This document shows positions 1,490 to 23,153 of a DNA stretch of 29,595 nucleotides, one piece after another. The notes below the pieces were generated by a model. That model saw only the letters and a program-made list of their open reading frames with translations, was not told where the DNA came from and did not search any database. The number at the start of each line of letters is the position of its first letter. The stretch's first letter is position 1. Origin of the DNA: a virus (taxonomy: Duplodnaviria; Heunggongvirae; Uroviricota; Caudoviricetes). Position numbers and translations under genes: made by a program. Where the stretch lies: the IMG/VR virus record IMGVR_UViG_2558860274_000007; one strand, written 5' to 3'.

Positions 1490-1619
1490 GAAAACCGCAA
1501 TGGTGCTCAAGGCAAAAGACGTTATTCGCCGTGGCTGTCTGGAATATGACGTCAGCGCCACCGACATCACCAGCTCGTTTATGGCTATCCGCAAGACCAT
1601 GACCAGCAGCGGACGCAGT
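1490..1619. repeat. Diverged ~130-bp direct copy of an internal segment of terminase gene P, inserted between U and D
   Basis: 1490-1619 matches 18153-18284 in the same orientation with a few mismatches (ctcaag/cttaag, attcgcc/atccgcc, tatgac/tacgac). Flanking sequence on both sides is unrelated. Confidence 0.8.
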
Positions 1620-6730: not shown

Positions 6731-6825
6731 CCGTTTAACTCCGTGGTTAATGGGTGCAACTATTTTCTGTTGGGCAGTGCATGAGACGCTATTTGACCTG
6801 GCTGGTCAGTGGATGAAACAACAGA

Positions 6826-8088: not shown

Positions 8089-8130
8089 TGGCACAGAGTG
8101 GACTGTCAGATTAGGCTTTACTCTGTGCCA
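8089..8130. repeat. Inverted repeat with 11-bp arms (TGGCACAGAGT / ACTCTGTGCCA) and a ~20-nt spacer, between G and the cargo gene
   Basis: Perfect arms read from the sequence. No adjacent T-run on either strand, so not a canonical terminator. Confidence 0.3.
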
Positions 8131-8164
8131 TAGATATGTAAGCCCACACTAGAGCTCATACAAC

Positions 8165-8692: not shown

Positions 8693-8695
8693 AAC

Positions 8696-10705
8696 TTACA
8701 CCTGCGCAACGTTATACCATGTGCCATTGATGTACTTTTGTATCGGCCTGAAGATGGCTTCATCATCGCCATCTACTTCACCAATGATTCTTAATCCGGT
8801 AATCGTGTGTCCGGCTTTTTCATAACGACCACCTCGCGCCATCAATTGAACAACTCGCGTACCCAGGCGAACATCTTTCACATAGCGGGAATCAAAATTC
8901 CCCCAGTTGCTGGGTTGCATCTGACCATTAACAGCAAATATTACCGAGTTATCTGTATTTCGCTGGCTATAGAAATGCCATCCGGACTCATCGCCTAACT
9001 CTGCAACCACTGGACGGTTGGAAGCACCCCATAAATTAAAGGTAATATTCTTCGTGGATGTGTTAGAGCTGGATAGCGAGAACTTTTTACTATCCCCTAC
9101 CTGAATATTTTTAAAAGCAATAGCCACTCCATTCTGAAAACGGAATACACGCTGACTGTTAGCATAAACATCAAGAATACCGTCTCCATTCTGTTTAAAT
9201 CCGGTATCATTATCACCAAGGACAATAGAGCTACCACCTAGTGCATTCGTCGTACCAACTCCAAGACAGCCATTAATGACGGCATTAACAAGAATATTTA
9301 GTGCATCCCATTTCAGCGTCATCAGGTCTTTTGTTGTGGTACTCTGGCGGCTTCTCCATTTGAAATATTCATTGCCGTTATCCCCCGTTTCAAACCACAT
9401 GTATGAATCAGCGTCACCATCGGCATCATTTTTAAATCCAATCTTCGCCCATTCAGTATTTCGAATCCAGGCAAGGATTGAGTCGTTTTCAAAAGTAATC
9501 CCGCCGGACAAGATATCGCCATTCTTTTGCACCGCGTTCCTGGCCCTGTTTACCGTTTCCAGCAAACCGAGATATTCGATAACGGCGGCAACGGTCGATT
9601 TAGCCAGAATATCCCGCCCGACTTTTGTCAGGGTCGCCAGGCTGGCAACATCATTCCCCGTAAAATACGGAAACCTGTCTGCCGCAGTAGCAAGCCCCGC
9701 CAGCGCCGTCAAAGTGGCATCTTTCGGTTGCTTACTCGCAAGCGCATTAGTCATGGTGGTAGCAAAATTCGGGTCATTGCCCAGCGCCGCCGCCAGCTCG
9801 TTCAGCGTATTCAGTGCGTCAGGCGACGAGTCTACAAGGGCGGCAATCGCGGCCATAACGAAAGCCGTGTTTGCGATCTGAGTATTATTCGTTCCCTGTC
9901 GCGCAGTTGGCGTCGTTGGCGTTCCGGTCAGTGCAGGGCTGTTTAATGGCGCTTTCTTGTTCGTTTCATCCATTACCGTCTTAACGGCTTTTGGTGTTGC
10001 GGCGAGCGTTTCAGACGTGCTGTTAGTCGCACTACTGAGCTGAACAAGGCCTTTTCGCGCGGTGGTGGCGTCCTGTGCGGTATATTTCCCGTTAGCAAGG
10101 TCATATGCGGCCTTAACCGCTTTCGGCGTTGCGGCCAGTGTTTCAGACGTGCTGTTGGTCGCACTGCTTAACTGAGTAAAACCTTTGGCGGTCAGCGAGG
10201 CGTCCGGGTGACGTCGTGACTGTTCATGTTCTGCAATTTTGTCATCAACGTAATCCTGCGTTGCCATCACCGTTGTGGTGTCAATGGTCAGCGCCACTGA
10301 GGCCACACTGCTGACGATGATGACCATGCGGCAGGTCTGCGAACGCCCTGAGCCTTCGGCAAGAGCTGGCTTATAACTTTCAGCCATGTTCGCCACGGCA
10401 ATTAACGTTCCAGCATCATCGTACAGGCCAAGCTCACGCATCCAGAAACCGCCCACCTCCGGCGGAATAACCAGCTCTGCGATAATATAATTACTGTTTC
10501 GTTTGTCCTGGCTGATTTTATTCAGCGCATGTCGCCAGACTTCATGGATAAGCCCGGTCTGTCCGGCATCCGGGACAGGCAATTTACCACCGCCATCCCC
10601 GACGGCCATCGTGGTAATGTTGACCTTCCGCCCTCCCGGTGCGGTTGCTGCTGCCAGCTTTGCTGCACCGGCAGTGGTGATAACGGTTCTGAATTTTGTG
10701 CTCAT
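8696..10705 (-). CDS. H: Tail fiber protein H, 669 aa
   Basis: 669-aa ORF (the P2 gpH length) with a conserved N-terminus MSTKFRTVITTAGAAKLAAATAPGG... and an internal tandem repeat of the motif LSSATNSTSETLAATPKAVK. Confidence 0.93.
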   Translation of the reverse strand: MSTKFRTVITTAGAAKLAAATAPGGRKVNITTMAVGDGGGKLPVPDAGQTGLIHEVWRHALNKISQDKRNSNYIIAELVIPPEVGGFWMRELGLYDDAGTLIAVANMAESYKPALAEGSGRSQTCRMVIIVSSVASVALTIDTTTVMATQDYVDDKIAEHEQSRRHPDASLTAKGFTQLSSATNSTSETLAATPKAVKAAYDLANGKYTAQDATTARKGLVQLSSATNSTSETLAATPKAVKTVMDETNKKAPLNSPALTGTPTTPTARQGTNNTQIANTAFVMAAIAALVDSSPDALNTLNELAAALGNDPNFATTMTNALASKQPKDATLTALAGLATAADRFPYFTGNDVASLATLTKVGRDILAKSTVAAVIEYLGLLETVNRARNAVQKNGDILSGGITFENDSILAWIRNTEWAKIGFKNDADGDADSYMWFETGDNGNEYFKWRSRQSTTTKDLMTLKWDALNILVNAVINGCLGVGTTNALGGSSIVLGDNDTGFKQNGDGILDVYANSQRVFRFQNGVAIAFKNIQVGDSKKFSLSSSNTSTKNITFNLWGASNRPVVAELGDESGWHFYSQRNTDNSVIFAVNGQMQPSNWGNFDSRYVKDVRLGTRVVQLMARGGRYEKAGHTITGLRIIGEVDGDDEAIFRPIQKYINGTWYNVAQV

Positions 10706-10715
10706 TATTCCTCAC

Positions 10716-11246
10716 TTATCCGGGGTAAACCGTAATTACATCGCCGTCGTAAGCCACACCACCGGCGAACAGATAGCCGGGAATGTCCCGGGTAATGTTC
10801 AGGCCAATAAGGTGACGGCTTGCAGGTTTGGCATCAGCAATCAGCCGTTCCATTTCCTGATACATTGCCTCTGTGATGCCGCTTTCCAGTACACCAATAT
10901 CAAGCCGGAAGGTGCCGGGCGGGTCACTGTTTTCCCACCACTCCGTCACGTTAATGAGATAGCCGAGCGGCTCCACCACACGCCGGATTGCGCCTATAGT
11001 GCCTTTATGACAGTGGATGAAATAGGCATCGCGGATAACGGCGCGTTTTGTCGCTTCCGGCCACTTTTCATCCCACCTGTCGACCGAAAACGCCCACGCC
11101 AGCCACGGCAGCAGATTTGCCGGGCAGGTGTCCGGGTTCCACAGCTCACGAATACTGACCGGCGTTTTTTCAATTTCCGCACAGGCTTTTGCGGCAGCAA
11201 TTTCAAGCGGTGATGAGCCGGTCGGCAGCAGGCGCGAATCACTCAT
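10716..11246 (-). CDS. I: Baseplate protein I, 176 aa
   Basis: 176-aa ORF between J and H, the P2 gpI position and size. Confidence 0.9.
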   Translation of the reverse strand: MSDSRLLPTGSSPLEIAAAKACAEIEKTPVSIRELWNPDTCPANLLPWLAWAFSVDRWDEKWPEATKRAVIRDAYFIHCHKGTIGAIRRVVEPLGYLINVTEWWENSDPPGTFRLDIGVLESGITEAMYQEMERLIADAKPASRHLIGLNITRDIPGYLFAGGVAYDGDVITVYPG

Positions 11247-12147
11247 CCGAGCCTCCGGTCACGACGCGGTATTCGGTACAGAAAGACGCCTGCGTACTGT
11301 TGAGCACAATGTCGGCCAGCGGTGCAGCCAGTTCGACACGCTGCACGCCTTCCACATGCAAAGCGGCATAAATGGCAGACAGACGGATGTCGCGCCCCAG
11401 CCGGTGCTGTGCCGTGATGTACGCTTCCAGTTTTTTCACGGCAGCAGCGCGGATGGGTTCGCTTTCGGGACCAGGGTAAAGGTAAAGCGTGGCGTTTATC
11501 TGGTATTCAACGATGGCGGCAGACTGCACGGTCACGCGGTCGGCCACCGGCCTGACGTCCTCGCCATTAAGGGCGTTACGCACCACCGCCAGCAGGTCTT
11601 CGGATGCGACACCGTTATTTTCACGTGACAGCACAGAGATGGTGACGCAGGCCGGAGACGGACTGGTGACAGAGATATCCGCGACACGCCCGTCGGCACT
11701 GCGACCATGATACTGATAGGCTCCCACTGACCCGGCGACGCTTAAACCTTCAAACGCCTGCTGAATACGCAGACGATAATCGGTGTCAGATTCCATCACT
11801 GCCGGTGTCGGCGGGATAGTCGAATCATCTGCCGGGGTGATAGTCAGGCGCGTGGTGTTGTAATTGGCACCAATCACATCAAGGTCATTACCGGCGGCAC
11901 AGGCCAGCATCACCGCCCGTGCGGCCTCATTCACACGCTGACGCCAGATAAGCTCACGATAAGCATTTTCTTCCAGCAGTTTGACGAGAGGCTCAGATTC
12001 CAGTGTCAGGGTACGGGCGACCGCCTCCTGCTGGTCTTCCGGGTAAAGGGAAATCAGTGTCGCCTTGCGTTCGGCGAGAATGGTTTCAAAGTCCAGCTCC
12101 TCGACCACATCCGGTGCGGGTAGCTGGTTCAGGTCGATAATCGGCAT
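11239..12147 (-). CDS. J: Baseplate wedge protein J, 302 aa
   Basis: 302-aa ORF MPIIDLNQLPAPDVVEELDFETILAERKA...; P2 gpJ size and position. Confidence 0.93.
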   Translation of the reverse strand: MPIIDLNQLPAPDVVEELDFETILAERKATLISLYPEDQQEAVARTLTLESEPLVKLLEENAYRELIWRQRVNEAARAVMLACAAGNDLDVIGANYNTTRLTITPADDSTIPPTPAVMESDTDYRLRIQQAFEGLSVAGSVGAYQYHGRSADGRVADISVTSPSPACVTISVLSRENNGVASEDLLAVVRNALNGEDVRPVADRVTVQSAAIVEYQINATLYLYPGPESEPIRAAAVKKLEAYITAQHRLGRDIRLSAIYAALHVEGVQRVELAAPLADIVLNSTQASFCTEYRVVTGGSDE

Positions 12148-12151
12148 GGTT

Positions 12152-12499
12152 TCAACTCACAGGGATGGTTAACGAAAGTGGCTGGCCGGTGTCGTTGTGC
12201 TGACCGGTTAACGTGACCGTCATTCGCCCGTCAAAACTGCGCGCCGTGGTGACGGATGACAGGGTGACGCGGGGTTCCCATTTCAGCACTGCCATGTAAC
12301 AGGCGACCTTAATCTGCAACTCAAGCGCCGGGGTCTGCGGCTGGTCAATCATTGACGCCAGCAACGAGCCGTAATCACGACGCATCACCCGTGAGCCGAC
12401 GGGGGTACGCAGGATATCGCCGATACTCTGGCTGATATGCTCAAGGTCAGTGACAGTCAGGCCATCACTGCGATTCATTCCGAGATAACGCGCAGTCAT
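12152..12499 (-). CDS. W: Baseplate protein W (gp25-like), 115 aa
   Basis: 115-aa ORF between V and J. Confidence 0.9.
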   Translation of the reverse strand: MTARYLGMNRSDGLTVTDLEHISQSIGDILRTPVGSRVMRRDYGSLLASMIDQPQTPALELQIKVACYMAVLKWEPRVTLSSVTTARSFDGRMTVTLTGQHNDTGQPLSLTIPVS

Positions 12500-13131
12500 A
12501 GAGGTCCCCCGGTTGTGCCGCCGCTGTCGCCGGGGTGTTTATGGGTATGCAGTACCTTACCGTTTGATGAGAGCTCACCGCCGGTGTGTTCAATGTTGCC
12601 GCGCATCGTCCCGCCCTTCTGCACTTCCAGCGTGCCGGTAATCAGCCTGTTGGTGCAGACCACCTCCGGTGTGTCCAGGGTGATGCGGGTTGATGCTTTC
12701 ACCATGACCACCGGCACCGTGGCAGTAACAGAATCAGAAGCCGTCACGCTGGCCGTTTTAACTCCGCTTACCGTGAGCGCGCTGGTTTCAGGTTCATACT
12801 CAATCACCGCCCCGTCAGGGAAACGGATATGCAGGGCATCCGCCGACGCAGACGGCGCGGGGTTATCGCCGGAATAAATCCCCGGCAGAACGAACGCCGT
12901 GTCGAGTTCACCACCCACGGCCAGAATCAGCACCTGTTCCCCCACGGAAGGTGCCCACCATGTGCGCGAACGCCCGGCGCGATGGGTCAGCCACTGAAGC
13001 CAGTCGGTGCACATGCCGCCGGTCTGCACACGGCAGCGACCGGCATTAAGGTCGGTTTCGACGATAATGCCGGTGCGGATCATGTTGCGCAGTGCGCGCG
13101 CGAGTTCCTGAATATTTGCGAGAGTGTTCAT
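12496..13131 (-). CDS. V: Baseplate spike/hub protein V, 211 aa
   Basis: Start chosen at the ATG for MNTLANIQELARALRNMIRTG (13131). The track ORF begins six codons earlier at a TTG. Confidence 0.88.
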   Translation of the reverse strand: MNTLANIQELARALRNMIRTGIIVETDLNAGRCRVQTGGMCTDWLQWLTHRAGRSRTWWAPSVGEQVLILAVGGELDTAFVLPGIYSGDNPAPSASADALHIRFPDGAVIEYEPETSALTVSGVKTASVTASDSVTATVPVVMVKASTRITLDTPEVVCTNRLITGTLEVQKGGTMRGNIEHTGGELSSNGKVLHTHKHPGDSGGTTGGPL

Positions 13132-13214
13132 GCGTGTGAGATTGCACAATATATAAAAGTTATGCTATCTGGATTCATTTGTAGAACGACCATACAACAT
13201 TCGAGGAGAGCGTA

Positions 13215-14000
13215 ATGTTCAGTGATAATGTGACTAATGCGTGGTGGTTTATCTCTTTGTATCTATTTTTATTAATAGCATTAACATTTGTTACCTTTGG
13301 TAAAAGTAATCTTATGAGGTTTATTGCACATCATTTCAATCTTGAGTATTCAGACAGAAAGTTAAAAATGCTCGACAAAAAATGGCGCGACATTCAACTA
13401 TTTAAAATAATTAACGGAATCAATGTATCAGGCATCGAAGATGTGAGAATGATACAGCAGGGGCTGATTGATGGAAAACTAAAAACATCGTATTTTTTCC
13501 TTACTCGCTTCTGGGGTGACATAACAAAACCACCACACATAATTAAAACAACAATTGTAATTCTGGCCAGTATTATTTATATTCTCTTCGCATGTTATAT
13601 ACACAATGAACAATCCGCTATAGTAAGGGATGCCATAGGTATACCATATAAAAATATGATGTACTATGTTTATAGTGACAAAGTTCTTTTATCCTTCAAA
13701 AATAAAACGGTTGAATTTAATAAAACTTATAGCCTTGCCGATTGCAAGAGTCTGCAAAACGTATTTATAAAAGACACACTTCCCGAGATCGCCTGCAATA
13801 AGCTCTTACAGCTAAACAAGGAGGACTCCGAATGGTTAAGTCAGGAGATTAAAGATAATAACAGTCACAAAAAAGCATTATTAATACTATCCCTCGTCTA
13901 TTTCACTTCAGGTCTGGTTATATTCCTGTCATATACAAAATTCTTTTACGCCAATAAGAAGGTTTTAGAATACAAAGCATCAAATAAAAATCACTCATAA
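13215..14000 (+). CDS. Hypothetical 261-aa membrane protein with three predicted transmembrane helices, inserted between V and S in the opposite orientation; candidate moron (superinfection exclusion or abortive infection)
   Basis: Very AT-rich ORF with a GAGGAG ribosome-binding site 6 nt before the ATG. Hydrophobic segments AWWFISLYLFLLIALTFVTF, IIKTTIVILASIIYILFACYI and ALLILSLVYFTSGLVIFLSY. A hairpin terminator follows directly. Confidence 0.75.
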   Translation: MFSDNVTNAWWFISLYLFLLIALTFVTFGKSNLMRFIAHHFNLEYSDRKLKMLDKKWRDIQLFKIINGINVSGIEDVRMIQQGLIDGKLKTSYFFLTRFWGDITKPPHIIKTTIVILASIIYILFACYIHNEQSAIVRDAIGIPYKNMMYYVYSDKVLLSFKNKTVEFNKTYSLADCKSLQNVFIKDTLPEIACNKLLQLNKEDSEWLSQEIKDNNSHKKALLILSLVYFTSGLVIFLSYTKFFYANKKVLEYKASNKNHS

Positions 14001-14007
14001 ACCTCTA

Positions 14008-14045
14008 AACATTGAGCGACCAGCATGGCCGCTCAATGTTTAATT
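14008..14045. terminator. Hairpin terminator between the convergent cargo gene and S
   Basis: Perfect 11-bp stem AACATTGAGCG / CGCTCAATGTT with an 11-nt loop, followed by TTTAATT on the plus strand. Confidence 0.6.
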
Positions 14046-14071
14046 GCGCATCAGCCTCTGCCTGGATAAAA

Positions 14072-14524
14072 CTAACGCTCAAGGTGAGCCAGGATAATCT
14101 CTTCAATCATCTGCACATCCTCACCGGTAAAACCGAGCAGAGGACGCGCCGGATAATCAATTTTCTTACCGTCTTTCCGGTTTTCTTCCGACAGGCCGAA
14201 CTGATGCACACTGGCGATTTTCGGTGACTTCCCGCCGTAAAATTCCATTGATGCCTGCTCCGGGCTGGCGCGGATATGCAAAAAACGACTGGTGATAAGT
14301 TTCGCAAACATTTTTCGCTTAACTCGACCGGTCTTTTTTCTGGCGCTCTGCTGTTGGCGTGGTGCGTAGGGTGTGCCGTCCGGGGCTTTCTGTGCCATCA
14401 CCCGACGCTGCTGACTCTGCCGCAGGCGCTTCGCCAGTTCGGCACTCAGTCGCCGACGCCCTGACGGTGACAGCGATTCAGTCAGTCCGGTCAGCCGGTC
14501 TTCAAAACGCTTAAACTCATTCAT
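14072..14524 (-). CDS. S: Tail completion protein S, 150 aa
   Basis: 150-aa ORF MNEFKRFEDRLTGLTESL...; P2 gpS size and position downstream of R. Confidence 0.92.
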   Translation of the reverse strand: MNEFKRFEDRLTGLTESLSPSGRRRLSAELAKRLRQSQQRRVMAQKAPDGTPYAPRQQQSARKKTGRVKRKMFAKLITSRFLHIRASPEQASMEFYGGKSPKIASVHQFGLSEENRKDGKKIDYPARPLLGFTGEDVQMIEEIILAHLER

Positions 14525-14984
14525 CCCACTTGCTCACCAGTTCGCCATTGATATAAAGCTCCATCGGGCGGTTGACCGGCTCCGGCGGCGGGGGTTCCGG
14601 GATATTCTTCACATGCAGTGCGCCGTCCACCTCACTGACCAGCGTGCGCTCGGTCAGCATCAGGCTGATGCTGATATCAAAGCTGCTGTCATTGTTGATG
14701 TCTGCATAAAACGTGAAGCCCTTTTTCTGGCCTTCGTCGGTGGTCATGATGTCGGGCTGATTTTCCCGCAGCCACGCCAGTACCGGCACGATGAGCAGGT
14801 CAAAATCACCGGTAAAGTCGGCCACAATGACATTGAGCGTGTAACGCTTTTCGAATGACAGCGACGTCGCCAGTGTGGAGGCAATACTCCCGTTATCCAC
14901 GAATATCCGCAGCATCTCGGGGCTGGTTTTCAGCACCGTGACGGCATCAGTCAGCGCCCTGCGCAGGCTGTCGGGTTTGAGCAT
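14517..14984 (-). CDS. R: Tail completion protein R, 155 aa
   Basis: 155-aa ORF MLKPDSLRRALTDAVTVLK...; P2 gpR size and position. Confidence 0.92.
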   Translation of the reverse strand: MLKPDSLRRALTDAVTVLKTSPEMLRIFVDNGSIASTLATSLSFEKRYTLNVIVADFTGDFDLLIVPVLAWLRENQPDIMTTDEGQKKGFTFYADINNDSSFDISISLMLTERTLVSEVDGALHVKNIPEPPPPEPVNRPMELYINGELVSKWDE

Positions 14985-15237
14985 CGTTTTCGTCCTGACA
15001 GTGTTTAATCATTTTTACCTGGCTGGCACAGCGTGCCAGCGCGTTCTCAAGCAGCCGGATATCGGCACTTAAATCGCCGTTCTTCTGCGGTTCACTGCCC
15101 GGCATCGGGCAAAGACTCACTTTCGGGCAGGCGTTGTGGACAATCACTGGCGTCTGCGCAGGCCGGGCGCTGGTGCAACCGGCGCACAGCATCAGGCAGG
15201 TCAGCACCGTACCAGCGGCGAAAATCTTCGTTTTCAT
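14947..15237 (-). CDS. lysC: LysC, Rz1-like outer-membrane spanin lipoprotein (96 aa), embedded in the lysB 3' end and overlapping the R start
   Basis: MKTKIFAAGTVLTCLMLCAGC carries a lipobox (LCAGC). Reading frame is nested in lysB in another frame, as in P2. Confidence 0.75.
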   Translation of the reverse strand: MKTKIFAAGTVLTCLMLCAGCTSARPAQTPVIVHNACPKVSLCPMPGSEPQKNGDLSADIRLLENALARCASQVKMIKHCQDENDAQTRQPAQGAD

Positions 15238-15517
15238 TGAGTAACCTCGTGATGGTTTTCTCGCGCTGTGCTTCACGCTTCGCGGCGTTCTCCAGTTCCT
15301 GACGCAGTGCCACCTGCGCCAGCTCGTTTTTGTCTGCCCTGGTGATGGCAACATGAAGCTGATTTTTCAGCATGGTGATGGTCGTCTGCTGTTCACTGGC
15401 GACGTTATTCGCCCTGTCCAGCGAGGCGCGCAGGCTGGCATTTTTGTGTTTCACCAGAAACAGACCGGCCACCGCCAGCGATAACAACACGACCAGCACA
15501 ATCATCAGCTTTGACAT
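15092..15517 (-). CDS. lysB: LysB, Rz-like inner-membrane spanin, 141 aa
   Basis: N-terminal transmembrane segment MSKLMIVLVVLLSLAVAGLFLV followed by a coiled-coil region; P2 LysB size. Confidence 0.88.
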   Translation of the reverse strand: MSKLMIVLVVLLSLAVAGLFLVKHKNASLRASLDRANNVASEQQTTITMLKNQLHVAITRADKNELAQVALRQELENAAKREAQREKTITRLLNENEDFRRWYGADLPDAVRRLHQRPACADASDCPQRLPESESLPDAGQ

Positions 15518-15645
15518 AGTTCCCGCCCCTCAAGACGCTGACGACAGGCTTTACGTATCAGCCGGAAAAACAGCGACGCCACAAGATAAATCAGCGCGGT
15601 AAAAATCCACCCGGCAGCGACCAGCGAGATAAACGTCGCCACCAT
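15505..15645 (-). pseudogene. Possible 3' remnant of lysA (46-codon hydrophobic ORF) left by the O-to-lysA deletion
   Basis: Short ORF MVATFISLVAAGWIFTALIYLVASLFFRLIRKACRQRLEGRELCQS whose stop overlaps the lysB start, which is where the lysA 3' end lies in P2. Its start coincides with the point where O diverges from P2. Confidence 0.3.
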
Positions 15646-16477
15646 CACCACCACCGCCGGTGGCCTTGCTGCGGCGCTGCTGGGTCAGACTTTCGGTGTG
15701 GTCGAGACTGTTTTTCAGGCGGGTGAATGCCTGGCTGGTTTCATCCGCCCTGTCAGTCACCTCCTGCTTAAGTGCGGAAAAGGCGTTTTCCATCTCAGCG
15801 AGGCGCTGCTCAGTGGCGCTCAGTTTTTCCTGCACATGTTCAGCAACAGCGGTCACCGCTTCATGCACGTCATTCAGACGGGCGTCATCGCTGGCCTGTT
15901 TGCGGCCAAAAATGGATTTCACCTTTTCGGTCAGGGCGGTGAACACGGTTTCAGGCAGGTCTTCAAATTCCAGCTCAACGGGCGTTGCCACTGAAATCAG
16001 GTTTTCAGGGCTTAATTTGAAGCGGTTCAGGGGGTTGTGTTTTGCCGTGCGGCAGAATTCCAGATATTCCGTGCCGAGGCTTGCCGGGTCATCGGTGACG
16101 GCCAGCCCCACCAGATAACATTTGCCGGTGTTGGCAAAGTTCGGCTGAATCTCCATTGAGGTGTAGACCTTCTGCGCGGCCTTGTTCATCGCGATAAGGT
16201 CATCGGTCGGGGTGATTTTCGCAAACAGCGCCCATTTGCCTTTCAGCGCCGAATCATCGTCAATCTTTTCGGCCTTCAGTTCAGCCACATCACCATAACG
16301 TTTAAAAATACCGTCAGGCAGGATGCCGCGCAGATGTTCCAGGTTAATGCGGCAACCATAGACTCGCGGGTCAAAGGTTTCGGCCATTTCCTGAATATCC
16401 TGCGCGCTGATGACACGCCCGTCACAGGTGTCACCCTCAACGCCGATACGAAAGAATTTTGAGACTTTTTTTGCCAT
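15551..16477 (-). CDS. O: Capsid scaffold protein O with an altered C-terminus (about 278 native residues plus a 30-residue unrelated tail)
   Basis: MAKKVSKFFRIGVEGDTCDGRVISAQDIQEMAETFDPRVYG... is P2 gpO-like up to ...RRSKATGGGGD, then GGDVYLAGRCRVDFYRADLSCGVAVFPADT read across the deletion junction. Start at the ATG for MAKK (16477). Confidence 0.85.
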   Translation of the reverse strand: MAKKVSKFFRIGVEGDTCDGRVISAQDIQEMAETFDPRVYGCRINLEHLRGILPDGIFKRYGDVAELKAEKIDDDSALKGKWALFAKITPTDDLIAMNKAAQKVYTSMEIQPNFANTGKCYLVGLAVTDDPASLGTEYLEFCRTAKHNPLNRFKLSPENLISVATPVELEFEDLPETVFTALTEKVKSIFGRKQASDDARLNDVHEAVTAVAEHVQEKLSATEQRLAEMENAFSALKQEVTDRADETSQAFTRLKNSLDHTESLTQQRRSKATGGGGDGGDVYLAGRCRVDFYRADLSCGVAVFPADT

Positions 16478-16650
16478 TGTCAGGAGTCCTGAATAGTGAT
16501 TAGAGGAGTCACATGTCGGCATCAGTTTCCCGACGATGCGCATCCTCCGCCATCAGTCCCGGATGGCTTATCACTGACACAACAGCACCTTAGCGAATCG
16601 CGGGGCGCGACTCAGTAGCCTTGCCGTGTATTCATCACGGCGAGGTATTC
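16478..16650. promoter_or_regulatory. Divergent late-promoter region between O and P (expected Ogr-dependent promoters)
   Basis: By position only, from P2 organisation. I could not find a clean TGT-N12-ACA activator site by eye. Confidence 0.35.
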
Positions 16651-18423
16651 ATGACCATCACCACAGACACCACTCTTTTACACGACCCGCGTCGTCAGGC
16701 GGCGCTGCTGTACTGGCAGGGGTTTTCCGTGCCGCAGATTGCCGCCATGTTGCAGATGAAACGCCCGACAGTGCAGAGCTGGAAACAGCGCGACGGCTGG
16801 GACAGCGTTGCCCCCATCAGCCGTGTCGAAATGAGTCTGGAAGCGCGGCTGACCCAGCTCATCATCAAACCGCAGAAAACCGGCGGTGATTTCAAGGAAA
16901 TTGACCTGCTGGGACGCCAGATTGAACGACTGGCACGGGTCAACCGTTACAGTCAGACCGGCAACGAGGCAGACCTTAATCCGAACGTCGCTAACCGCAA
17001 CAAAGGCGGGCGTCGCAAACCGAAAAAGAATTTTTTCAGTGACGAGGCCATCGAAAAGCTGGAGCAGATTTTCTTTGAGCAGTCTTTCGACTATCAGTTG
17101 CACTGGTATCGCGCCGGGCTTGAGCACCGCATCCGCGATATCCTGAAATCCCGCCAGATTGGTGCGACGTATTATTTTTCCCGCGAGGCGCTGCTGCACG
17201 CACTGAAAACCGGCCATAACCAGATTTTTCTGTCGGCCAGTAAAACGCAGGCGTATGTGTTCCGTGAATACATCATCGCCTTTGCCCGGCTGGTTGACGT
17301 TGACCTGACCGGTGACCCGATTGTCCTGGGCAATAACGGCGCAAAACTGATTTTTCTCGGCACCAACTCCAACACCGCGCAGAGCCATAACGGCGACCTG
17401 TACGTCGACGAGATTTTCTGGATCCCGAATTTTCAGGTACTGCGTAAGGTGGCATCAGGTATGGCCTCACAGAGTCACCTGCGTTCGACCTATTTCTCCA
17501 CCCCGTCCACGCTGGCGCACGACGCCTACCCGTTCTGGTCGGGTGAACTGTTTAACCGGGGACGCGCCAGCGCCGCTGAACGCGTGGAAATCGACGTCAG
17601 TCATAACGCACTTGCCGGAGGTCTTCTCTGTGCGGACGGCCAGTGGCGGCAGATTGTCACCATTGAGGACGCCCTGAAAGGCGGCTGCACGCTGTTCGAC
17701 ATTGAGCAGCTCAAACGCGAAAACAGCGCCGACGATTTTAAAAACCTGTTCATGTGTGAATTTGTTGACGACAAGGCGTCGGTGTTCCCGTTCGAGGAGT
17801 TGCAACGCTGCATGGTCGACACGCTGGAAGAATGGGAAGACTATGCGCCGTTTGCCGCCAATCCGTTCGGCTCACGCCCGGTCTGGATTGGTTACGACCC
17901 GTCACACCGTGGCGACAGCGCCGGATGCGTGGTGCTGGCACCGCCGGTGGTTGCCGGTGGCAAATTCAGAATACTTGAGCGTCACCAGTGGAAAGGCATG
18001 GACTTTGCCACCCAGGCGGAATCCATCCGCAAACTCACCGAAAAATACAACGTCGAATACATCGGTATTGATGCCACCGGCCTCGGTGTCGGCGTGTTCC
18101 AGCTCGTGCGCTCGTTCTATCCTGCCGCGCGCGACATCCGCTACACGCCGGAAATGAAAACCGCAATGGTGCTTAAGGCAAAAGACGTTATCCGCCGTGG
18201 CTGTCTGGAATACGACGTCAGCGCCACCGACATCACCAGCTCGTTTATGGCTATCCGCAAGACCATGACCAGCAGCGGACGCAGCGCCACCTATGAGGCC
18301 AGCCGCAGCGAGGAAGCCAGCCACGCCGACCTCGCCTGGGCGACCATGCACGCCCTGTTAAATGAGCCACTCACCGCCGGTATCAGCACCCCGCTGACAT
18401 CCACCATTCTGGAGTTTTACTGA
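16651..18423 (+). CDS. P: Terminase large (ATPase/nuclease) subunit P, 590 aa
   Basis: Start at the ATG for MTITTDTTLLHDPRRQAALLYWQG, with GAGG 4-5 nt upstream. 590 aa as in P2 gpP. Stop overlaps the Q start (TGATG). Confidence 0.93.
   Translation: MTITTDTTLLHDPRRQAALLYWQGFSVPQIAAMLQMKRPTVQSWKQRDGWDSVAPISRVEMSLEARLTQLIIKPQKTGGDFKEIDLLGRQIERLARVNRYSQTGNEADLNPNVANRNKGGRRKPKKNFFSDEAIEKLEQIFFEQSFDYQLHWYRAGLEHRIRDILKSRQIGATYYFSREALLHALKTGHNQIFLSASKTQAYVFREYIIAFARLVDVDLTGDPIVLGNNGAKLIFLGTNSNTAQSHNGDLYVDEIFWIPNFQVLRKVASGMASQSHLRSTYFSTPSTLAHDAYPFWSGELFNRGRASAAERVEIDVSHNALAGGLLCADGQWRQIVTIEDALKGGCTLFDIEQLKRENSADDFKNLFMCEFVDDKASVFPFEELQRCMVDTLEEWEDYAPFAANPFGSRPVWIGYDPSHRGDSAGCVVLAPPVVAGGKFRILERHQWKGMDFATQAESIRKLTEKYNVEYIGIDATGLGVGVFQLVRSFYPAARDIRYTPEMKTAMVLKAKDVIRRGCLEYDVSATDITSSFMAIRKTMTSSGRSATYEASRSEEASHADLAWATMHALLNEPLTAGISTPLTSTILEFY
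18153..18284. repeat. Parent copy, inside P, of the segment duplicated at 1490-1619
   Basis: Near-identical to 1490-1619 over about 130 bp, same orientation. Confidence 0.8.
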
Positions 18424-19457
18424 TGAGCAAGAAAAAAGGGAAAACACCGCAACCTGCGGCAAAAACAATGACCGCCAGCGCCCCGAAAATGGAGGCATTC
18501 ACCTTTGGTGAGCCGGTGCCGGTACTCGACCGCCGTGACATTCTGGATTACGTCGAGTGCATCAGTAACGGCAGATGGTATGAGCCACCGGTCAGCTTTA
18601 CCGGTCTGGCAAAAAGCCTGCGTGCTGCCGTACATCACAGCTCACCGATTTACGTCAAACGTAATATTCTGGCCTCGACATTTATCCCGCATCCGTGGCT
18701 TTCACAACAGGATTTCAGCCGCTTTGTGCTGGATTTTCTGGTGTTCGGTAATGCGTTTCTGGAAAAGCGTTACAGCACCACCGGTAAGGTCATCAGACTG
18801 GAAACCTCACCGGCAAAATATACCCGCCGTGGGGTGGAAGAGGATGTTTACTGGTGGGTGCCGTCCTTCAACGAACCGACAGCCTTCGCGCCCGGCTCCG
18901 TGTTTCACCTGCTGGAGCCGGATATTAATCAGGAGTTGTACGGCCTGCCGGAATATCTCAGCGCCCTTAACTCTGCCTGGCTGAATGAGTCGGCCACGCT
19001 GTTCCGCCGCAAGTATTACGAAAACGGCGCACATGCCGGATACATCATGTACGTCACTGATGCCGTGCAGGATCGCAACGATATCGAAATGCTCCGCGAA
19101 AACATGGTGAAGTCGAAAGGCCGCAACAACTTTAAAAATCTGTTTCTCTATGCCCCACAGGGGAAAGCCGACGGCATTAAAATTATCCCGCTCAGTGAAG
19201 TCGCAACGAAGGACGATTTTTTTAATATCAAAAAAGCCAGCGCCGCTGACCTGCTGGACGCGCACCGCATCCCCTTTCAGTTGATGGGCGGCAAGCCGGA
19301 GAACGTCGGGTCGCTGGGTGATATTGAGAAAGTGGCAAAGGTCTTTGTCCGCAATGAGCTTATCCCGTTACAGGACAGGATTCGGGAAATAAACGGCTGG
19401 CTCGGTCAGGAGGTCATCCGCTTTAAAAACTACTCACTGGACACTGACAACGGCTGA
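18423..19457 (+). CDS. Q: Portal (capsid vertex) protein Q, 344 aa
   Basis: MSKKKGKTPQPAAKTMTASAPKMEAFTFGEP...; 344 aa as in P2 gpQ. Confidence 0.93.
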   Translation: MSKKKGKTPQPAAKTMTASAPKMEAFTFGEPVPVLDRRDILDYVECISNGRWYEPPVSFTGLAKSLRAAVHHSSPIYVKRNILASTFIPHPWLSQQDFSRFVLDFLVFGNAFLEKRYSTTGKVIRLETSPAKYTRRGVEEDVYWWVPSFNEPTAFAPGSVFHLLEPDINQELYGLPEYLSALNSAWLNESATLFRRKYYENGAHAGYIMYVTDAVQDRNDIEMLRENMVKSKGRNNFKNLFLYAPQGKADGIKIIPLSEVATKDDFFNIKKASAADLLDAHRIPFQLMGGKPENVGSLGDIEKVAKVFVRNELIPLQDRIREINGWLGQEVIRFKNYSLDTDNG

Positions 19458-19461
19458 ACAT

Positions 19462-19484
19462 CGCCGCCTGCGGGCGGCTTTTTT
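19462..19484 (+). terminator. Rho-independent terminator downstream of Q
   Basis: GCCGCC-TGCG-GGCGGC hairpin followed by TTTTTT. Confidence 0.7.
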
Positions 19485-19626
19485 ACACCCCGTCATCACA
19501 CCCTCACACGCTCACCACCGCACAAAACACCCCGCAGACACACCAACGCCCCGGCGCACACTCTAAACGCCATCACGACGTGCTCAGACGCTGAAAAAAT
19601 AAAATCAGCACCACCGCCAGCGCGCA

Positions 19627-19645
19627 GTGCTTTCCCCGCCTCGCC
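19627..19645. other. cos: cos site: 19-nt P2 cohesive-end sequence (reverse complement orientation)
   Basis: gtgctttccccgcctcgcc is the reverse complement of GGCGAGGCGGGGAAAGCAC, the P2 cohesive end as I recall it; it lies just downstream of Q as in P2. Confidence 0.8.
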
Positions 19646-19872
19646 CGCCCGCTTCATGGGTCGGTTTTGATGCAATTCCAAAAGCCGTCCAAACTCTCTT
19701 AGGCTAAATGTCCAACGAGAAAATAGTGCTTTGAATGTGAATGCATTTTAATGCAGAGTTATGCCCAGCATTTTTGTACACTTCGATGTATCAAATGCGC
19801 TGCAAACGATCAAATATGGATGTTTTATCAAGCATCCCCCAAAAGATATTTACATCATCCCATGAGGTTAAG

Positions 19873-20946
19873 ATGGATAACAAAATCGTAGAAATTGAGA
19901 CAAATAAGCTTGATTTTGACCCTAAAAACCCACGTTTCTTTCGTCTCAATGATGCCAGTAACGCTGCAACAGTCATTGAGGAAATGTTAGATGACGAAAG
20001 TGTCCACGATCTAATGCTATCAATCGGTCAGCAAGGTTACTTTCCTGGAGAACCTTTATTGGCAGTAAAAAGCAATGGAAACTACATCGTGGTTGAGGGA
20101 AACAGACGCTTAGCTGCTGTAAAGTTGCTCAATGGAGATCTGCTTCCTCCAAAAAGAAAACTTAAAGGTGTGCAAGAAATCATTGATGATACTACCAATA
20201 AACCTAAGAAGCTTCCCTGCATCATTTATGAAAACCGAGAGGATGTACTGAGATATATCGGTTATCGTCATATAACTGGGGTCAAAGAATGGGACTCATT
20301 ATCTAAAGCCAAATACCTTAAAGAGTTATGTGATACTTTTTATTCACATGAACCTAAAGAGATAGTATTAAAAAATCTGGCTCGTGAGATTGGGAGTAAA
20401 CCACATTATGTTGCAACACTTCTCACTGCACTGAACTTATATGAAGTCGCGCATGACCATGAGTTTTTTAATTTACCCATGAAGGCTTCTGACGTGGAAT
20501 TTTCATATATAACCACAGCTTTGGGATATTCAAAAATCACAAACTGGTTAGGTCTACAGGATAAAAAGGATTTTTTAGACCCAAATTTAAATGAAGAAAA
20601 CCTTAAGCGTTTATTCTCTTGGTTTTTTGTGCCTGACCAACAAGGTAGAACCATCATCGGTGAGTCTCGAAGAATAAAAGATATTGCAGCAGTGGTTGAG
20701 AAACCCGAAGCAATTGAAATTCTCATGAAAAGTTCAAACTTGGATGAAGCATATCTATATACCAGCGGAGAAAGAGAAGCATTAGATAAAGCACTAAACG
20801 CAGCTAGTGTTAAATTAAGAGTAGTTTGGGATATGCTACTTAAAGCTAAAGAATTAACATTAGAGCATGAAGAGGCTGCATCTGAAATTTTTGAGATGTC
20901 AAAAAATATTAGAAATCAGATCAGAAGCAAAAGGGAGGATGATTGA
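19873..20946 (+). CDS. ParB-like (ParB/Srx-fold N-terminal domain) protein, 357 aa; first gene of the cargo cassette after cos
   Basis: Start chosen at the ATG for MDNKIVEIE, with GAGG 5 nt upstream. ParB-like motifs DFDPKNPRF and YIVVEGNRRLAAVKLL. AT-rich. The track ORF starts 44 codons earlier with no ribosome-binding site. Confidence 0.72.
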   Translation: MDNKIVEIETNKLDFDPKNPRFFRLNDASNAATVIEEMLDDESVHDLMLSIGQQGYFPGEPLLAVKSNGNYIVVEGNRRLAAVKLLNGDLLPPKRKLKGVQEIIDDTTNKPKKLPCIIYENREDVLRYIGYRHITGVKEWDSLSKAKYLKELCDTFYSHEPKEIVLKNLAREIGSKPHYVATLLTALNLYEVAHDHEFFNLPMKASDVEFSYITTALGYSKITNWLGLQDKKDFLDPNLNEENLKRLFSWFFVPDQQGRTIIGESRRIKDIAAVVEKPEAIEILMKSSNLDEAYLYTSGEREALDKALNAASVKLRVVWDMLLKAKELTLEHEEAASEIFEMSKNIRNQIRSKREDD

Positions 20947-20950
20947 GATT

Positions 20951-21976
20951 ATGATTACAAATCTTGATTCAATGCCTTCTAATGAGCCTTATTTATGGGC
21001 TGATTATATTGAGATATTGGCCTTAACTAATATCGACAGGTCATTCAGTCGAGGAGACCTATATAGCACACTGCAAGCTCAACCCGAAGCAGTACTAGCT
21101 GAAACAGATGAAGCAGAAGAAGAGGGCGTTTATGATGTTGATGATGAAAATGATACGCCTGTACGCAAGAGAACAAAACGAAGTGTTAGTCGAGCATATA
21201 CTGACAGAAAGTGGAGCTATGCGATAGGCTTCATACGACAACGCATTGATTTATTTGGGGATAGTTACCCTTTTACTTTATCAGAAGACAACGATACTGT
21301 AGAGTTACGTGATATATCAGAAAAGCCACTGGAACATTTAGAAAGACTATATTTAGCTTTACTAATCTGTGCTAACATAAAATATGTCAACATAATGAGC
21401 AGAAGAGAGATAACGCGCAGTTTTGAACTAATTAGTTTACCTATTTTTGAAAGCCTAATGCCTAGCGGTAGCATAATAAAAGCATGCTGGGCTTCTGGTG
21501 GTCAAGCGGCCCCTTACACTGGAACTCTATATAATAAATTTAAGAGTATTGCTTCCGATATCCGTTGCACAGCGAACTTCAAAGAACGAGATTTCAGTCG
21601 AGGAAATAGTGGTGACGGAGGCCTTGACATAATTGCCTGGCATCCAATGGGAGATCAACGAGATGCCATCCCTATTTCTTTTGTTCAGTGTGGCTGTTCT
21701 CAAGAAGAGTGGGAAGCGAAGCAGCTTGAGGCCTCACCTGCGATGCTCTACAGTAAATTCCCCGTAGCTCACCGATGGGCAACTTATTATTTCTTACCTC
21801 AAGATCTACGATGGATAGATGGTGAGTGGGCACATAAAAATAAGTTAGGCGATGCTATTTTTGTTGATCGCCTAAGATTAATCAATTTAACCAGAGCATC
21901 TGATAATATTGATCACAGTCAAAATATTAGCTATCTAGATATCATCCTTGATCCTTCCAGCGCGATCGCTGCTTAG
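20951..21976 (+). CDS. Hypothetical ~340-aa protein with a putative Mrr-like / PD-(D/E)xK nuclease motif; second gene of the cassette
   Basis: C-terminal half contains GNSGDGGLDIIAW...ISFVQCG, which resembles the Mrr catalytic signature (GDGG-I/L-D ... QxK) but lacks the Lys. Acidic low-complexity N-terminal region. AAGGGAGG ribosome-binding site upstream; the start could be the ATG at 20939 or 20951. Overlaps the gene 1 stop. Confidence 0.65.
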   Translation: MITNLDSMPSNEPYLWADYIEILALTNIDRSFSRGDLYSTLQAQPEAVLAETDEAEEEGVYDVDDENDTPVRKRTKRSVSRAYTDRKWSYAIGFIRQRIDLFGDSYPFTLSEDNDTVELRDISEKPLEHLERLYLALLICANIKYVNIMSRREITRSFELISLPIFESLMPSGSIIKACWASGGQAAPYTGTLYNKFKSIASDIRCTANFKERDFSRGNSGDGGLDIIAWHPMGDQRDAIPISFVQCGCSQEEWEAKQLEASPAMLYSKFPVAHRWATYYFLPQDLRWIDGEWAHKNKLGDAIFVDRLRLINLTRASDNIDHSQNISYLDIILDPSSAIAA

Positions 21977-22911
21977 TCCCATAAATCTGGAAGGTTTCTA
22001 GCAACCGCCTCAAACAATGGAGGCGGTACTGCATTACCTACCACAGTATATTTCATATTAATAGAAGCCCGTTCAGTTTCTGGGAAAATTAAATCTCCAA
22101 AACCTTGTAAAATAGCAGCCTCTCGATAGCTAAACCTACGAGCTGGTGCATCCGAAGTAAATTGCCACTTATCAGGTCCCAATTTTTCTAATGTTGGACT
22201 TATTGGATGTAGAGGCATATGTCTAGGATTTGCAACAATTGTTTTAGATATCTGATCCCAATCTTGCCTACGGTTTCGCGATAGATAATACCAATGAAAA
22301 TCGGCGTCATAAAACTCGCCAACAGGCCAAACAGGCATATGCCCAATAGCATCACGAATTGTGGAATATGGTGTCAAACCATCACCATGTGTTGGTTTTG
22401 GAAATTTGTATGTAATACCGTAGTCCTTTCGTATTCCTACGATAAAGATTCGCTTCCTATCTTGGGATACCCCATAATGGGACGCATTCAGAATTTGCGA
22501 GCTTACTGTATAACCTGCTTCTTCGAAAACTTTGAATTGATCCTTTAATAAATGCTCAAAGTTACGCCTTACCATACCAGAGACATTCTCTACAATGAAT
22601 GCTTTTGGCTTAATTTTACTCAAAGCACGGGCAAACTCTAAATATAGTGTATTAATCTTTCTATCTGCCTTCCTTGCCCCACCTTGACTAAATCCTTGGC
22701 AAGGATAGCATCCGATGAGCAACTCAGCAGAAGGGAACGACTGGAGCCCTGAGATATCGCCCAAAATGTAGTCAGTTTCAGGATGGTTTTCTAAGTAAAC
22801 GTCCCTTGCGTAAGGCAAAATATCATTTGCCATAAGCACATTGAAACCTGCGTTCAAAACTCCCGCATCAGAACCACCACATCCAGAAAAAAGTGAAACT
22901 ACAGTTGGCAT
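21973..22911 (-). CDS. DNA (cytosine-5)-methyltransferase, 312 aa, convergent with the two-gene operon
   Basis: Canonical C5-MTase motifs in order: motif I FSGCGG, motif IV PCQGFS, motif VI ENV, motif VIII QDRKR, and C-terminal GNAVPP. Perfect AGGAGG ribosome-binding site 5 nt upstream. Its 3' end overlaps the gene 2 stop by about 4 nt. Confidence 0.9.
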   Translation of the reverse strand: MPTVVSLFSGCGGSDAGVLNAGFNVLMANDILPYARDVYLENHPETDYILGDISGLQSFPSAELLIGCYPCQGFSQGGARKADRKINTLYLEFARALSKIKPKAFIVENVSGMVRRNFEHLLKDQFKVFEEAGYTVSSQILNASHYGVSQDRKRIFIVGIRKDYGITYKFPKPTHGDGLTPYSTIRDAIGHMPVWPVGEFYDADFHWYYLSRNRRQDWDQISKTIVANPRHMPLHPISPTLEKLGPDKWQFTSDAPARRFSYREAAILQGFGDLIFPETERASINMKYTVVGNAVPPPLFEAVARNLPDLWD

Positions 22912-23153
22912 TGACCCCTCCTAAAAACCGACCGCGTATTATAGCGAAACACCCCGTTGGGAAAAGCTAGATTTTGCCAAGTCTTGATATTCTCACGTTT
23001 TAGTAGTTGTGGCCATCTTTAACGAGAAAAAGATAAAATTGACTTCTCATTAATTTTCAATAGGTTTAATTGTAAGCTCAAACTAACGCCTCGCGACACT
23101 CGTTATTCAACCCCGCCAGCCCTGAAAACAAGTTTCACGACTGGCGGCGTTCT

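What the first reader, a model, noticed from the sequence alone, without database searches (positions are those of the whole stretch)
15505..15660. Deletion scar: capsid and lysis genes N, M, L, X, Y, K and most of lysA are missing between O and lysB
In P2 the order is O-N-M-L-X-Y-K-lysA-lysB-R-S. Here lysB starts only about 35 bp after the O stop. O matches P2 gpO for about 278 residues, then reads 30 unrelated residues; from the breakpoint a different frame encodes a 46-aa hydrophobic peptide whose stop overlaps the lysB start, consistent with the 3' end of lysA. The prophage therefore lacks major capsid protein, small terminase, head completion protein, holin and endolysin. It cannot make particles or lyse, yet it keeps intact tail, replication, immunity and integrase genes plus all three cargo loci, which is what a domesticated cargo-carrying prophage would look like.
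Basis: partly seen in the sequence, partly recalled or inferred. Interest (0 to 1): 0.6.

Follow-up and report, generated by a model that had tools for sequence, protein, structure and literature searches.

The report
Head-and-lysis deletion in P2-like prophage
A P2-type prophage in Escherichia albertii KF1 has lost a 3.8-kb block holding its capsid, packaging, one tail and the main lysis genes through a simple microhomology deletion; this is ordinary prophage decay seen in this one genome only, not shown domestication.

Summary
Relative to P2 and to a near-identical sister prophage, exactly 3,795 bp are missing. The junction lies at window 15651-15653, a shared TGG inside a 7/9 imperfect match. 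The deletion removes the last 8-9 codons of O, all of N, M, L, X, Y and K, and lysA codons 1-92. It leaves an O' fusion (308 aa, 30 out-of-frame residues) and a 46-49 codon lysA remnant that overlaps intact lysB.

The window is the whole prophage of E. albertii KF1 (CP007025), which sits between fieF and cpxP with perfect 47-nt att repeats. The junction is absent from 5,426 complete E. coli genomes and from the GTDB species representatives. The O' protein occurs on one contig only.

Two sister isolates with the same flanks and the same prophage (0-1 SNP in 17-20 kb) carry different, non-nested late-gene deletions, also with 3-7 nt microhomologies. That pattern indicates independent random decay.

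"Intact tail genes" is overstated. X, an essential tail gene, is deleted, and U carries a 129-bp foreign insert that replaces its C-terminus. "Domesticated" is not demonstrated.

KF1 is a gap-filled short-read assembly, so an assembly artefact is not fully excluded.

This is a new instance of a well-known kind, of low interest.

The parts
15651..15653 (-). Deletion junction: the TGG shared perfectly by the O side and the lysA side. The imperfect 7/9 homology spans 15651-15659.
   Evidence: Three-way alignment of the window with the O side and lysA side of sister prophage L009, and of P2. The shift between the two alignments is 3,795 bp.
15551..16477 (-). O' fusion gene, 308 aa. It matches gpO scaffold/protease residues 1-278, followed by 30 residues read from lysA DNA in the wrong frame.
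   Evidence: ORF list. tblastn of gpO aligns residues 1-279 at 99.3%. The exact protein is found only on CP007025.1. Pfam PF05929 Phage_GPO_N.
15505..15654 (-). lysA remnant, codons 93-141. The ORF has a GTG at 15654 (49 aa) and an ATG at 15645 (46 aa), and encodes one hydrophobic helix plus a basic tail. It has probably lost its own translation start context.
   Evidence: tblastn aligns lysA residues 89-141. The ATG is native to this lysA allele, because L009 reads CTGGTGGTGATGGTG. Hydropathy.
15092..15517 (-). lysB (Rz-like spanin), intact, 141 aa. It now lies 33 nt downstream of the O' stop.
   Evidence: tblastn aligns residues 1-141. The exact protein is present in 4,184 index blocks, and in all 10 places shown it is preceded by full-length lysA.
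14947..15237 (-). lysC (Rz1-like spanin), intact.
   Evidence: tblastn aligns residues 1-96. PF23793 LysC.
14072..14984 (-). R and S (tail completion genes), intact and still downstream of the O promoter.
   Evidence: tblastn full length. P2 operon annotation.
16478..16650 (.). Divergent late promoter region between O' and P. It is retained.
   Evidence: Lies within the 97.7% match to P2 3999-1. P2 annotation of the Ogr-binding site and the pO/pP promoters.
16651..19457 (+). P (large terminase) and Q (portal), both intact. These head and packaging genes survive the deletion.
   Evidence: tblastn aligns P residues 1-590 and Q residues 1-343 of 344 at over 99.6%.
1490..1618 (.). Second lesion: a 129-bp insert in the 3' end of U. 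It is a copy of a foreign allele of gene P, and it gives a U' of 161 aa whose last 9 residues are replaced by 11 others.
   Evidence: blastn against L002 and against the window itself. The insert is 100% identical to the P gene of other E. coli P2-like prophages but has 3 mismatches to KF1's own P. The U' protein is unique to KF1.

Best explanation
This is a genuine, recent, strain-specific deletion in a P2-like (Peduovirus-type) prophage of Escherichia albertii KF1, integrated between fieF and cpxP.

Inferred mechanism: a RecA-independent illegitimate recombination event (replication slippage or microhomology-mediated end joining) joined a glycine-codon GGN run at the 3' end of O to a similar GGC/GGT run in the middle of lysA. 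The crossover used 3 perfectly shared bases within a 7/9 match and excised 3,795 bp.

Consequences read from the sequence: no major capsid protein, small terminase, head completion protein, tail protein X, holin or endolysin. O is fused to 30 nonsense residues. A promoter-distal lysA stub remains. lysB, lysC, R and S are still in the O operon.

Inferred from P2 genetics: the element cannot make heads, cannot package DNA, cannot complete tails and cannot lyse the host. It probably can still repress, excise (int, cox and the 47-nt att repeats are intact) and replicate (A, B). It still expresses its cargo genes.

It is one step in the ordinary mutational decay of a prophage, not a shown adaptation.
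For: - Breakpoints and gene loss are established.
- Both flanks come from one lineage. L009, from a sister isolate, is 100% identical on the O side and 99.95% identical on the lysA side, and it holds the full O-N-M-L-X-Y-K-lysA block between them. The junction is therefore a simple internal deletion and not a chimera of two phages.
- The source is CP007025.1, E. albertii KF1.
- It is a singleton. No place covers at least 80% of a 601-nt junction probe in 5,426 complete E. coli genomes, although 1,584 of those genomes match the flanks. There is no match in the GTDB representatives. The O' protein is on one contig only.
- Intact relatives with the same cargo are common. 56 complete E. coli genomes cover at least 80% of window 4600-29595; the best-matching records listed span about 3.8 kb more than the query, or more where they also carry an IS element.
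- Two sister E. albertii isolates with the same prophage at the same site differ by 0-1 SNP in 17-20 kb. They have different, non-nested deletions: 846 bp in Q plus 11,277 bp from J' to D' in one; 1,150 bp in P plus about 18.8 kb from N' to ogr in the other. Each junction has 3-7 nt of microhomology. This shows that such deletions really occur in this element.
- Other E. coli P2-like prophages show further deletion types: a U|P' join and a P'|S' join.
- KF1 has perfect 47-nt att repeats 29,869 bp apart.
Against: - The deletion is attested by a single assembly. That assembly was built from Ion Torrent, Illumina and 454 mate-pair reads with MaSuRCA into 5 scaffolds, and its gaps were closed in silico with GapFiller. 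No independent read-level or second-assembly confirmation exists in the collections searched.
- The same prophage carries a strange 129-bp piece of a foreign P allele inside U. This could hint at a second P2-like element in the genome and so at assembly trouble.
- The functional consequences are inferred from P2 genetics and were not tested in this strain.
Confidence: 0.8

Rival explanations
1. Domestication. Loss of the head and lysis block was selected because it locks a useful cargo-carrying prophage into the chromosome and removes its ability to kill the host. The cargo is a PD-Lambda-5-like ParB_N protein, a Dcm-type methylase, an Orf30-like protein and a 299-aa protein.
For: - All non-late functions and the three cargo loci are intact ORFs.
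- The three clonal isolates all keep int-C-cox-B-A plus the Dcm/hypothetical/ParB-like cargo while losing different late genes.
Against: - The sisters were found by an exact gpA look-up, so retention of the early region and the adjacent cargo is built into the sampling.
- The KF1 junction is a singleton.
- One sister keeps Y, K and ogr, so it may remain lysis-competent. There is no common selected loss.
- With 0-1 SNP among the sisters there has been too little time for purifying selection to be visible.
- int, cox and the att repeats are intact, so the element is not locked in.
Confidence: 0.1
2. Assembly or gap-closing artefact. The real KF1 prophage is intact, and the 3.8-kb block was dropped when a scaffold gap was closed. 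Such a gap could arise, for example, from a repeat shared with a second P2-like prophage.
For: - KF1 is a hybrid short-read assembly with in-silico gap filling.
- No second data set carries the junction.
- The 129-bp foreign P-allele fragment in U suggests that another P2-like sequence was in the read pool or in the genome.
Against: - Only 3 bases are perfectly shared at the junction. That is too few for an overlap-based merge; from my memory, GapFiller needs about 10 or more bases.
- Both flanks are from the same lineage.
- The junction has the same microhomology signature as four deletions in two independently sequenced sister isolates.
- The authors state that the remaining gaps were verified by PCR.
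Confidence: 0.1

Closest known systems
Bacteriophage P2 (Peduovirus P2, NC_001895) and intact P2-like prophages of E. coli at the fieF-cpxP site, for example strain AMSCJX02 and E. coli W
   Same: Same gene order and 92-100% protein identity for Q, P, O, lysB, lysC, R, S, V, W, J, I, H, G, FI, FII, E, T, U, D, ogr, B and A. The cos site is present.
   Different: It lacks 3,795 bp, from the 3' end of O to lysA codon 92. It has a different immunity region and integrase (C 43%, Cox 43% and Int 52% identity to P2). It carries different cargo at the old/tin and fun(Z) hotspots.
Defective or cryptic P2-like prophages. Examples are the P2 remnant of E. coli K-12 (ogrK plus a D fragment) and the defective P2-like prophage of E. 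coli B, both from my own knowledge, and the 'likely defective P2-like prophages' with conserved defence genes in doi 10.64898/2026.02.27.708500.
   Same: A P2-type prophage that has lost essential morphogenetic genes by deletion while other genes, including the cargo, remain.
   Different: This one is at an early stage. It has one 3.8-kb deletion plus one small insertion, about 89% of the genome is still present, and the att sites, int and cox are intact. This particular junction is not seen elsewhere.
Sister prophages in E. albertii GCA_012447505.1 and GCA_027565735.1
   Same: Same host clone, same integration site, same early region and same cargo, with 0-1 SNP difference.
   Different: They carry other deletions (Q and J'-D' in one; P and N'-ogr in the other), and their O gene is intact at 284 aa.
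R-type tailocins (P2-tail-derived bacteriocins such as R-pyocins; from my own knowledge)
   Same: P2-type tail genes present without a capsid gene.
   Different: Tailocins keep a complete tail set plus holin and endolysin, and they lack all head genes. Here X, Y and K are gone, U is altered, and P, Q and O' remain.

Membership tests
P2-like (Peduoviridae) prophage | Collinear gene order and sequence homology to P2 late, early and tail operons | tested here: met
   blastn shows 93-98% identity over about 25 kb. tblastn shows full-length homologues for 30 or more P2 proteins.
P2-like (Peduoviridae) prophage | Integrated form: joined cos inside the element, with integrase and ogr at the ends and flanking att repeats | tested here: met
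   cos lies at window 19627-19645. The window runs from the ogr stop to the int stop. 47-nt perfect direct repeats lie in the KF1 flanks.
Defective (non-inducible to particles) prophage | Absence of at least one gene essential for virion production | tested here: met
   N, M, L, X, Y and K are absent from the window. The P2 record annotates X as an essential tail gene and Y and K as essential for lysis, and names N the major capsid protein, M the small terminase subunit and L the head-tail adaptor / capsid completion protein. The phenotype itself was not tested.
Domesticated prophage | The defective state is conserved across diverged strains (vertical persistence) | tested here: not met
   The junction is absent from 5,426 E. 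coli genomes and from the GTDB representatives. The O' protein is on one contig. Clonal sisters have other deletions.
Domesticated prophage | Purifying selection on retained genes, or a shown host benefit | not testable with these tools
   There are only 0-1 SNP among the sisters, so no dN/dS signal is possible. No phenotype data are available.
R-type tailocin | Complete contractile-tail gene set plus a lysis cassette, with no head genes | tested here: not met
   X, Y and K are deleted and U is altered. P, Q and O' are present.
Phage satellite (P4-like) | Own replication and hijacking genes, without structural genes of its own | tested here: not met
   The element is collinear with P2 throughout and keeps nearly all the tail genes plus P and Q. 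No P4-type genes were seen in the ORF and Pfam listings.

The most novel reading that the evidence does not exclude
The late region of this prophage may be undergoing unusually fast, parallel inactivation in one E. albertii clone. Three isolates that differ by 0-1 SNP in about 20 kb each carry two independent lesions, while the early region and the defence-type cargo stay untouched.

The lesions look like double-strand-break repair by microhomology end joining, and in KF1 one of them includes a templated 129-bp filler copied from another P2-like phage. This would point to recurrent breakage of the late region, or to strong selection to disarm the phage while keeping its cargo.

The KF1 element keeps cos, P, Q, A, B, int, cox and the att repeats, and is 89% of full length. 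It might also still be mobilised by a co-infecting P2-like helper, in the manner of a satellite.
Probability: 0.2. Interest if true: 0.5.

Novelty: new member of a known kind. Interest (0 to 1): 0.2.

Why it matters
On its own it matters little. It documents, to the base pair, how one P2-type prophage became defective, and it corrects any annotation that counts this KF1 prophage as intact.

It has modest value as a dated example of prophage decay, because near-identical sister isolates carry different deletions. That gives a rare view of the first steps of degradation, in which microhomology deletions of 0.8-19 kb hit late genes. It also provides a small natural test bed for whether defence cargo in P2 hotspots outlives the phage that carries it.

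Tried and rejected
- An exact 48-nt junction search in the GTDB species representatives found nothing. KF1 is evidently not a representative genome, so this says little about E. albertii itself.
- A search for the U insertion in E. coli gave two apparent full-coverage hits. One of them (H81, the only one inspected) turned out to be a different structure, a U|P' deletion join, and not the same insertion.
- I considered a chimera of two different P2-like prophages, because window 14070-15653 is only 95.7% identical to AMSCJX02 while the rest is 99.6-99.8% identical. I rejected it because sister L009 matches both sides at 99.95-100% with the full block in between. The patch is ordinary mosaicism that predates the deletion.
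- I considered a tailocin and a satellite reading and rejected both (see the membership tests).
- I considered that the junction created the ATG of the lysA stub. It did not; the ATG is native to this lysA allele.
- A promoter and terminator scan of 15000-16700 showed nothing created at the junction.
- PADLOC found nothing meaningful for O' or the lysA stub. The weak ZorA and DruC hits at E of about 1e-3 fall on the coiled-coil part of gpO and were disregarded.
- A literature search on E. albertii prophages gave no description of this element.
- I could not check the rest of the KF1 genome for N, M, L, X, Y or K homologues. No tool gives access to the whole CP007025 record.

Full report
**What the window is.** The 29,595-bp window is one complete P2-type prophage, cut from the stop codon of ogr (position 1) to the stop codon of the integrase (position 29595). 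The late genes lie on the minus strand. blastn against P2 (NC_001895) gives collinear matches of 93-98% identity for the tail, late and replication regions. Non-P2 DNA sits at the fun(Z) site (window 6950-8088), at the old/tin site (19675-23591) and in the immunity/integrase region. An exact look-up of the fused O protein places the window on CP007025.1. That record is the chromosome of Escherichia albertii KF1. In KF1 the prophage lies between fieF-pfkA and cpxP and is flanked by perfect 47-nt direct repeats 29,869 bp apart.

**The observation.** The two P2 matches that meet in the reported interval are window 8089-15659 = P2 15349-7780 and window 15645-19645 = P2 3999-1. The 3' end of O is therefore joined directly to the middle of lysA. 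tblastn with every P2 protein finds nothing for N, M, L, X, Y or K anywhere in the window. O aligns for residues 1-279 of 284 and LysA for residues 89-141 only. LysB, LysC, R and S are full length.

- O' is 15551-16477 (minus strand), 308 aa. It is identical in sequence to gpO through residue 278 and then has 30 unrelated residues read from lysA DNA one base out of frame.
- The lysA-frame ORF is 15505-15654, with an ATG at 15645 that gives 46 aa.
- Its stop overlaps the lysB start at 15517.
- The O' stop is 33 nt from the lysB ATG.
- The stub is one hydrophobic helix plus a basic tail.

**Exact breakpoints.** An exact look-up of the KF1 LysB protein returned ten places, and every one carries the full O-N-M-L-X-Y-K-lysA array upstream. 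One of them, L009 (GCA_012447505.1), is 100% identical to the window over 2,072 bp on the O side and 99.95% identical over 3,617 bp on the lysA side, so it serves as a near-parent. Aligned to it:
- The O side reads ...CCACCGGCGGTGG|CGGAGAC.
- The lysA side reads ...GGCGGCTCTGG|TGGTGATGG.
- The window reads ...CCACCGGCGGTGGTGGTGATGG.

The perfectly shared bases are TGG (window 15651-15653), inside a 7/9 imperfect match, and the missing stretch is exactly 3,795 bp. In P2 coordinates the deletion removes about 3994-7788: the last 8-9 codons of O, N, M, L, X, Y, K and lysA codons 1-92. G276, G277 and D278 of O' are re-encoded by lysA-derived bases by coincidence, which is why the protein match runs a little past the DNA breakpoint. 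The ATG of the lysA stub is native to this lysA allele and was not created by the junction.

**How widespread the junction is.** A 601-nt probe across the junction finds flank matches in 1,584 of 5,426 complete E. coli genomes, but no place covers 80% or more of it. An exact 48-nt junction pattern is absent from the GTDB species representatives. The O' protein is recorded on one contig only. By contrast, 56 complete E. coli genomes cover at least 80% of window 4600-29595. The best-matching records listed span about 3.8 kb more than the query, or more where they also carry an IS element. H57, for example, spans 28,799 bp against the 24,996-bp query. The closest, AMSCJX02, has all the missing genes. 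The canonical order is therefore the norm for this lineage, and the KF1 arrangement is a derived singleton.

**Sister isolates.** The exact gpA protein of the window occurs on only six contigs. Two assemblies, GCA_012447505.1 (L027 and L009) and GCA_027565735.1 (L028), share KF1's host flanks and early region with 0-1 SNP in 17-20 kb. The same flanks are only about 94% identical to E. coli. These assemblies are the same E. albertii clone with the same prophage. Their lesions differ from KF1's and from each other's:

| Isolate | Lesions | Microhomology at the junctions |
|---|---|---|
| KF1 | 3,795 bp from O' to lysA'; 129-bp insert in U | TGG at the deletion junction |
| GCA_012447505.1 | 846 bp inside Q; 11,277 bp from J to D | about 4-7 nt; TTAC |
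| GCA_027565735.1 | 1,150 bp inside P; about 18.8 kb from N through ogr | TAGCG; about 3 nt |

The deletions are non-nested, so they arose independently from an intact ancestor. Other P2-like prophages in E. coli show yet other joins, U|P' in strain 98-3133 and P'|S' in GCA_964054995.1. Deletional decay of late genes is thus common in this family, and the KF1 junction has the usual signature of illegitimate, microhomology-mediated recombination. That mechanism is an inference from the junction sequences.

**Consequences.** According to the P2 record, N is the major capsid protein, M the small terminase subunit, L the head completion protein, X an essential tail gene, and Y and K the holin and endolysin essential for lysis. 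lysA is non-essential. By inference from P2 genetics, the KF1 element cannot build heads, cannot package DNA, cannot finish tails and cannot lyse. The late promoter region, O', lysB, lysC, R and S remain in one transcription unit, and no new terminator-like site is created at the junction. Int is identical to a protein seen in 543 index blocks. C, Cox, B and A are full length and the att repeats are perfect. Excision and replication are therefore plausible, and the element is not locked in.

There are two problems.
- The tail gene set is not intact. X is inside the deletion. U also carries a 129-bp insertion at window 1490-1618 that replaces its last 9 residues with 11 others. The insert is a piece of gene P. 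It is 100% identical to the P allele of many E. coli P2-like prophages but has 3 mismatches to KF1's own P, so it was copied from another P2-like genome. The U' protein is also unique to KF1.
- Domestication is not shown. The state is a singleton. The sisters lose different genes, and one of them keeps Y, K and ogr. The apparent constant retention of the early region and cargo follows from finding the sisters through gpA.

The cargo is plausibly defensive. The ParB_N-like protein matches PD-Lambda-5_A and PDC-M38A models, and the methylase matches DruM and type II methyltransferase models. P2 hotspots are known reservoirs of antiviral systems (PMC9122126, found). A 2026 preprint already reports defective P2-like elements with conserved defence genes and leaves domestication open.

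**Caveat.** KF1 was assembled from Ion Torrent, Illumina and 454 mate-pair reads with MaSuRCA into five scaffolds. Gaps were filled in silico with GapFiller and the rest checked by PCR. No independent data set confirms the junction, so an artefact cannot be excluded. I rate it unlikely, at about 0.1, for three reasons. Only 3 bases are shared at the join. Both flanks belong to one lineage. The same junction type occurs four times in two independently sequenced sisters.

**Verdict.** The deletion-scar reading is right. The claims of an intact tail and of domestication are not supported. This is a new instance of a well-known kind, a defective P2-like prophage at an early stage of decay, and its interest is low.

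Noticed in passing
window 1490-1618 (within U', 1585-2070, minus strand): A 129-bp in-frame insert sits 9 codons before the U stop. It is a copy of gene P residues about 500-545. It is 100% identical to the P allele of many E. coli P2-like prophages but has 3 mismatches to the window's own P (18153-18284). It has 2-3 nt of microhomology at one end and looks like templated filler DNA from a second P2-like genome. It is unique to KF1.
   Followed up: partly
L027 and L009 (GCA_012447505.1), L028 (GCA_027565735.1), compared with L029 and L016 (KF1): Three E. albertii isolates have identical host flanks and the same prophage (0-1 SNP in 17-20 kb). Each carries two different lesions in the late genes. 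The union of the three reconstructs a complete roughly 33.5-kb prophage.
   Followed up: yes
L028 near 17957-17959, corresponding to window gene P near 18140: The breakpoint of the 1,150-bp P deletion in sister isolate GCA_027565735.1 lies only 14 nt from the end of the P segment that was copied into U in KF1. This may be coincidence or a local break hotspot in P.
   Followed up: no
window 19741-22911: Cargo at the old/tin hotspot comprises three genes. A ParB_N-like protein matches PD-Lambda-5_A (N-terminal 150 aa, E=3e-24) and PDC-M38A. A 345-aa protein has no match. A Dcm-type cytosine methylase matches DruM and MTase_II models. Together they look like a candidate anti-phage module.
   Followed up: partly
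window 7050-7949 and 13215-14000: Two further cargo ORFs have no PADLOC match: a 299-aa protein at the fun(Z) site and an Orf30-like 261-aa protein (87% identical to P2 Orf30). The Orf30-like gene is absent from the otherwise closest E. coli relative, AMSCJX02.
   Followed up: no
window 14070-15653 versus the rest: This is a mosaic patch. The S-R-lysC-lysB-lysA' stretch is 95.7% identical to AMSCJX02, whereas the neighbouring regions are 99.6-99.8% identical. The patch is 100% identical to many other E. coli prophages. It is ordinary recombinational mosaicism that predates the deletion.
   Followed up: yes
L016 12182-12228 and L029 6340-6386 (KF1 flanks, outside the window): A perfect 47-nt direct repeat (GACACCATCCCTGTCTTCCCCCACATGATGTGGGGGTTTTTTTTATC) flanks the prophage, with the copies 29,869 bp apart. 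It contains a terminator-like hairpin and is presumably attL/attR.
   Followed up: partly
window 27842-29595: The immunity and integration module is not P2's. C is 43% identical, Cox 43% and Int 52%. The same Int protein is found in 543 index blocks, and in all the places shown it lies at the cpxP side of the fieF-cpxP site.
   Followed up: no
L004 (E. coli 98-3133) and L035 (GCA_964054995.1): Other P2-like prophages carry large internal deletions. In one, U is joined to a P fragment; in the other, a P fragment is joined to an S fragment. Head and lysis module loss therefore recurs in this phage family.
   Followed up: partly
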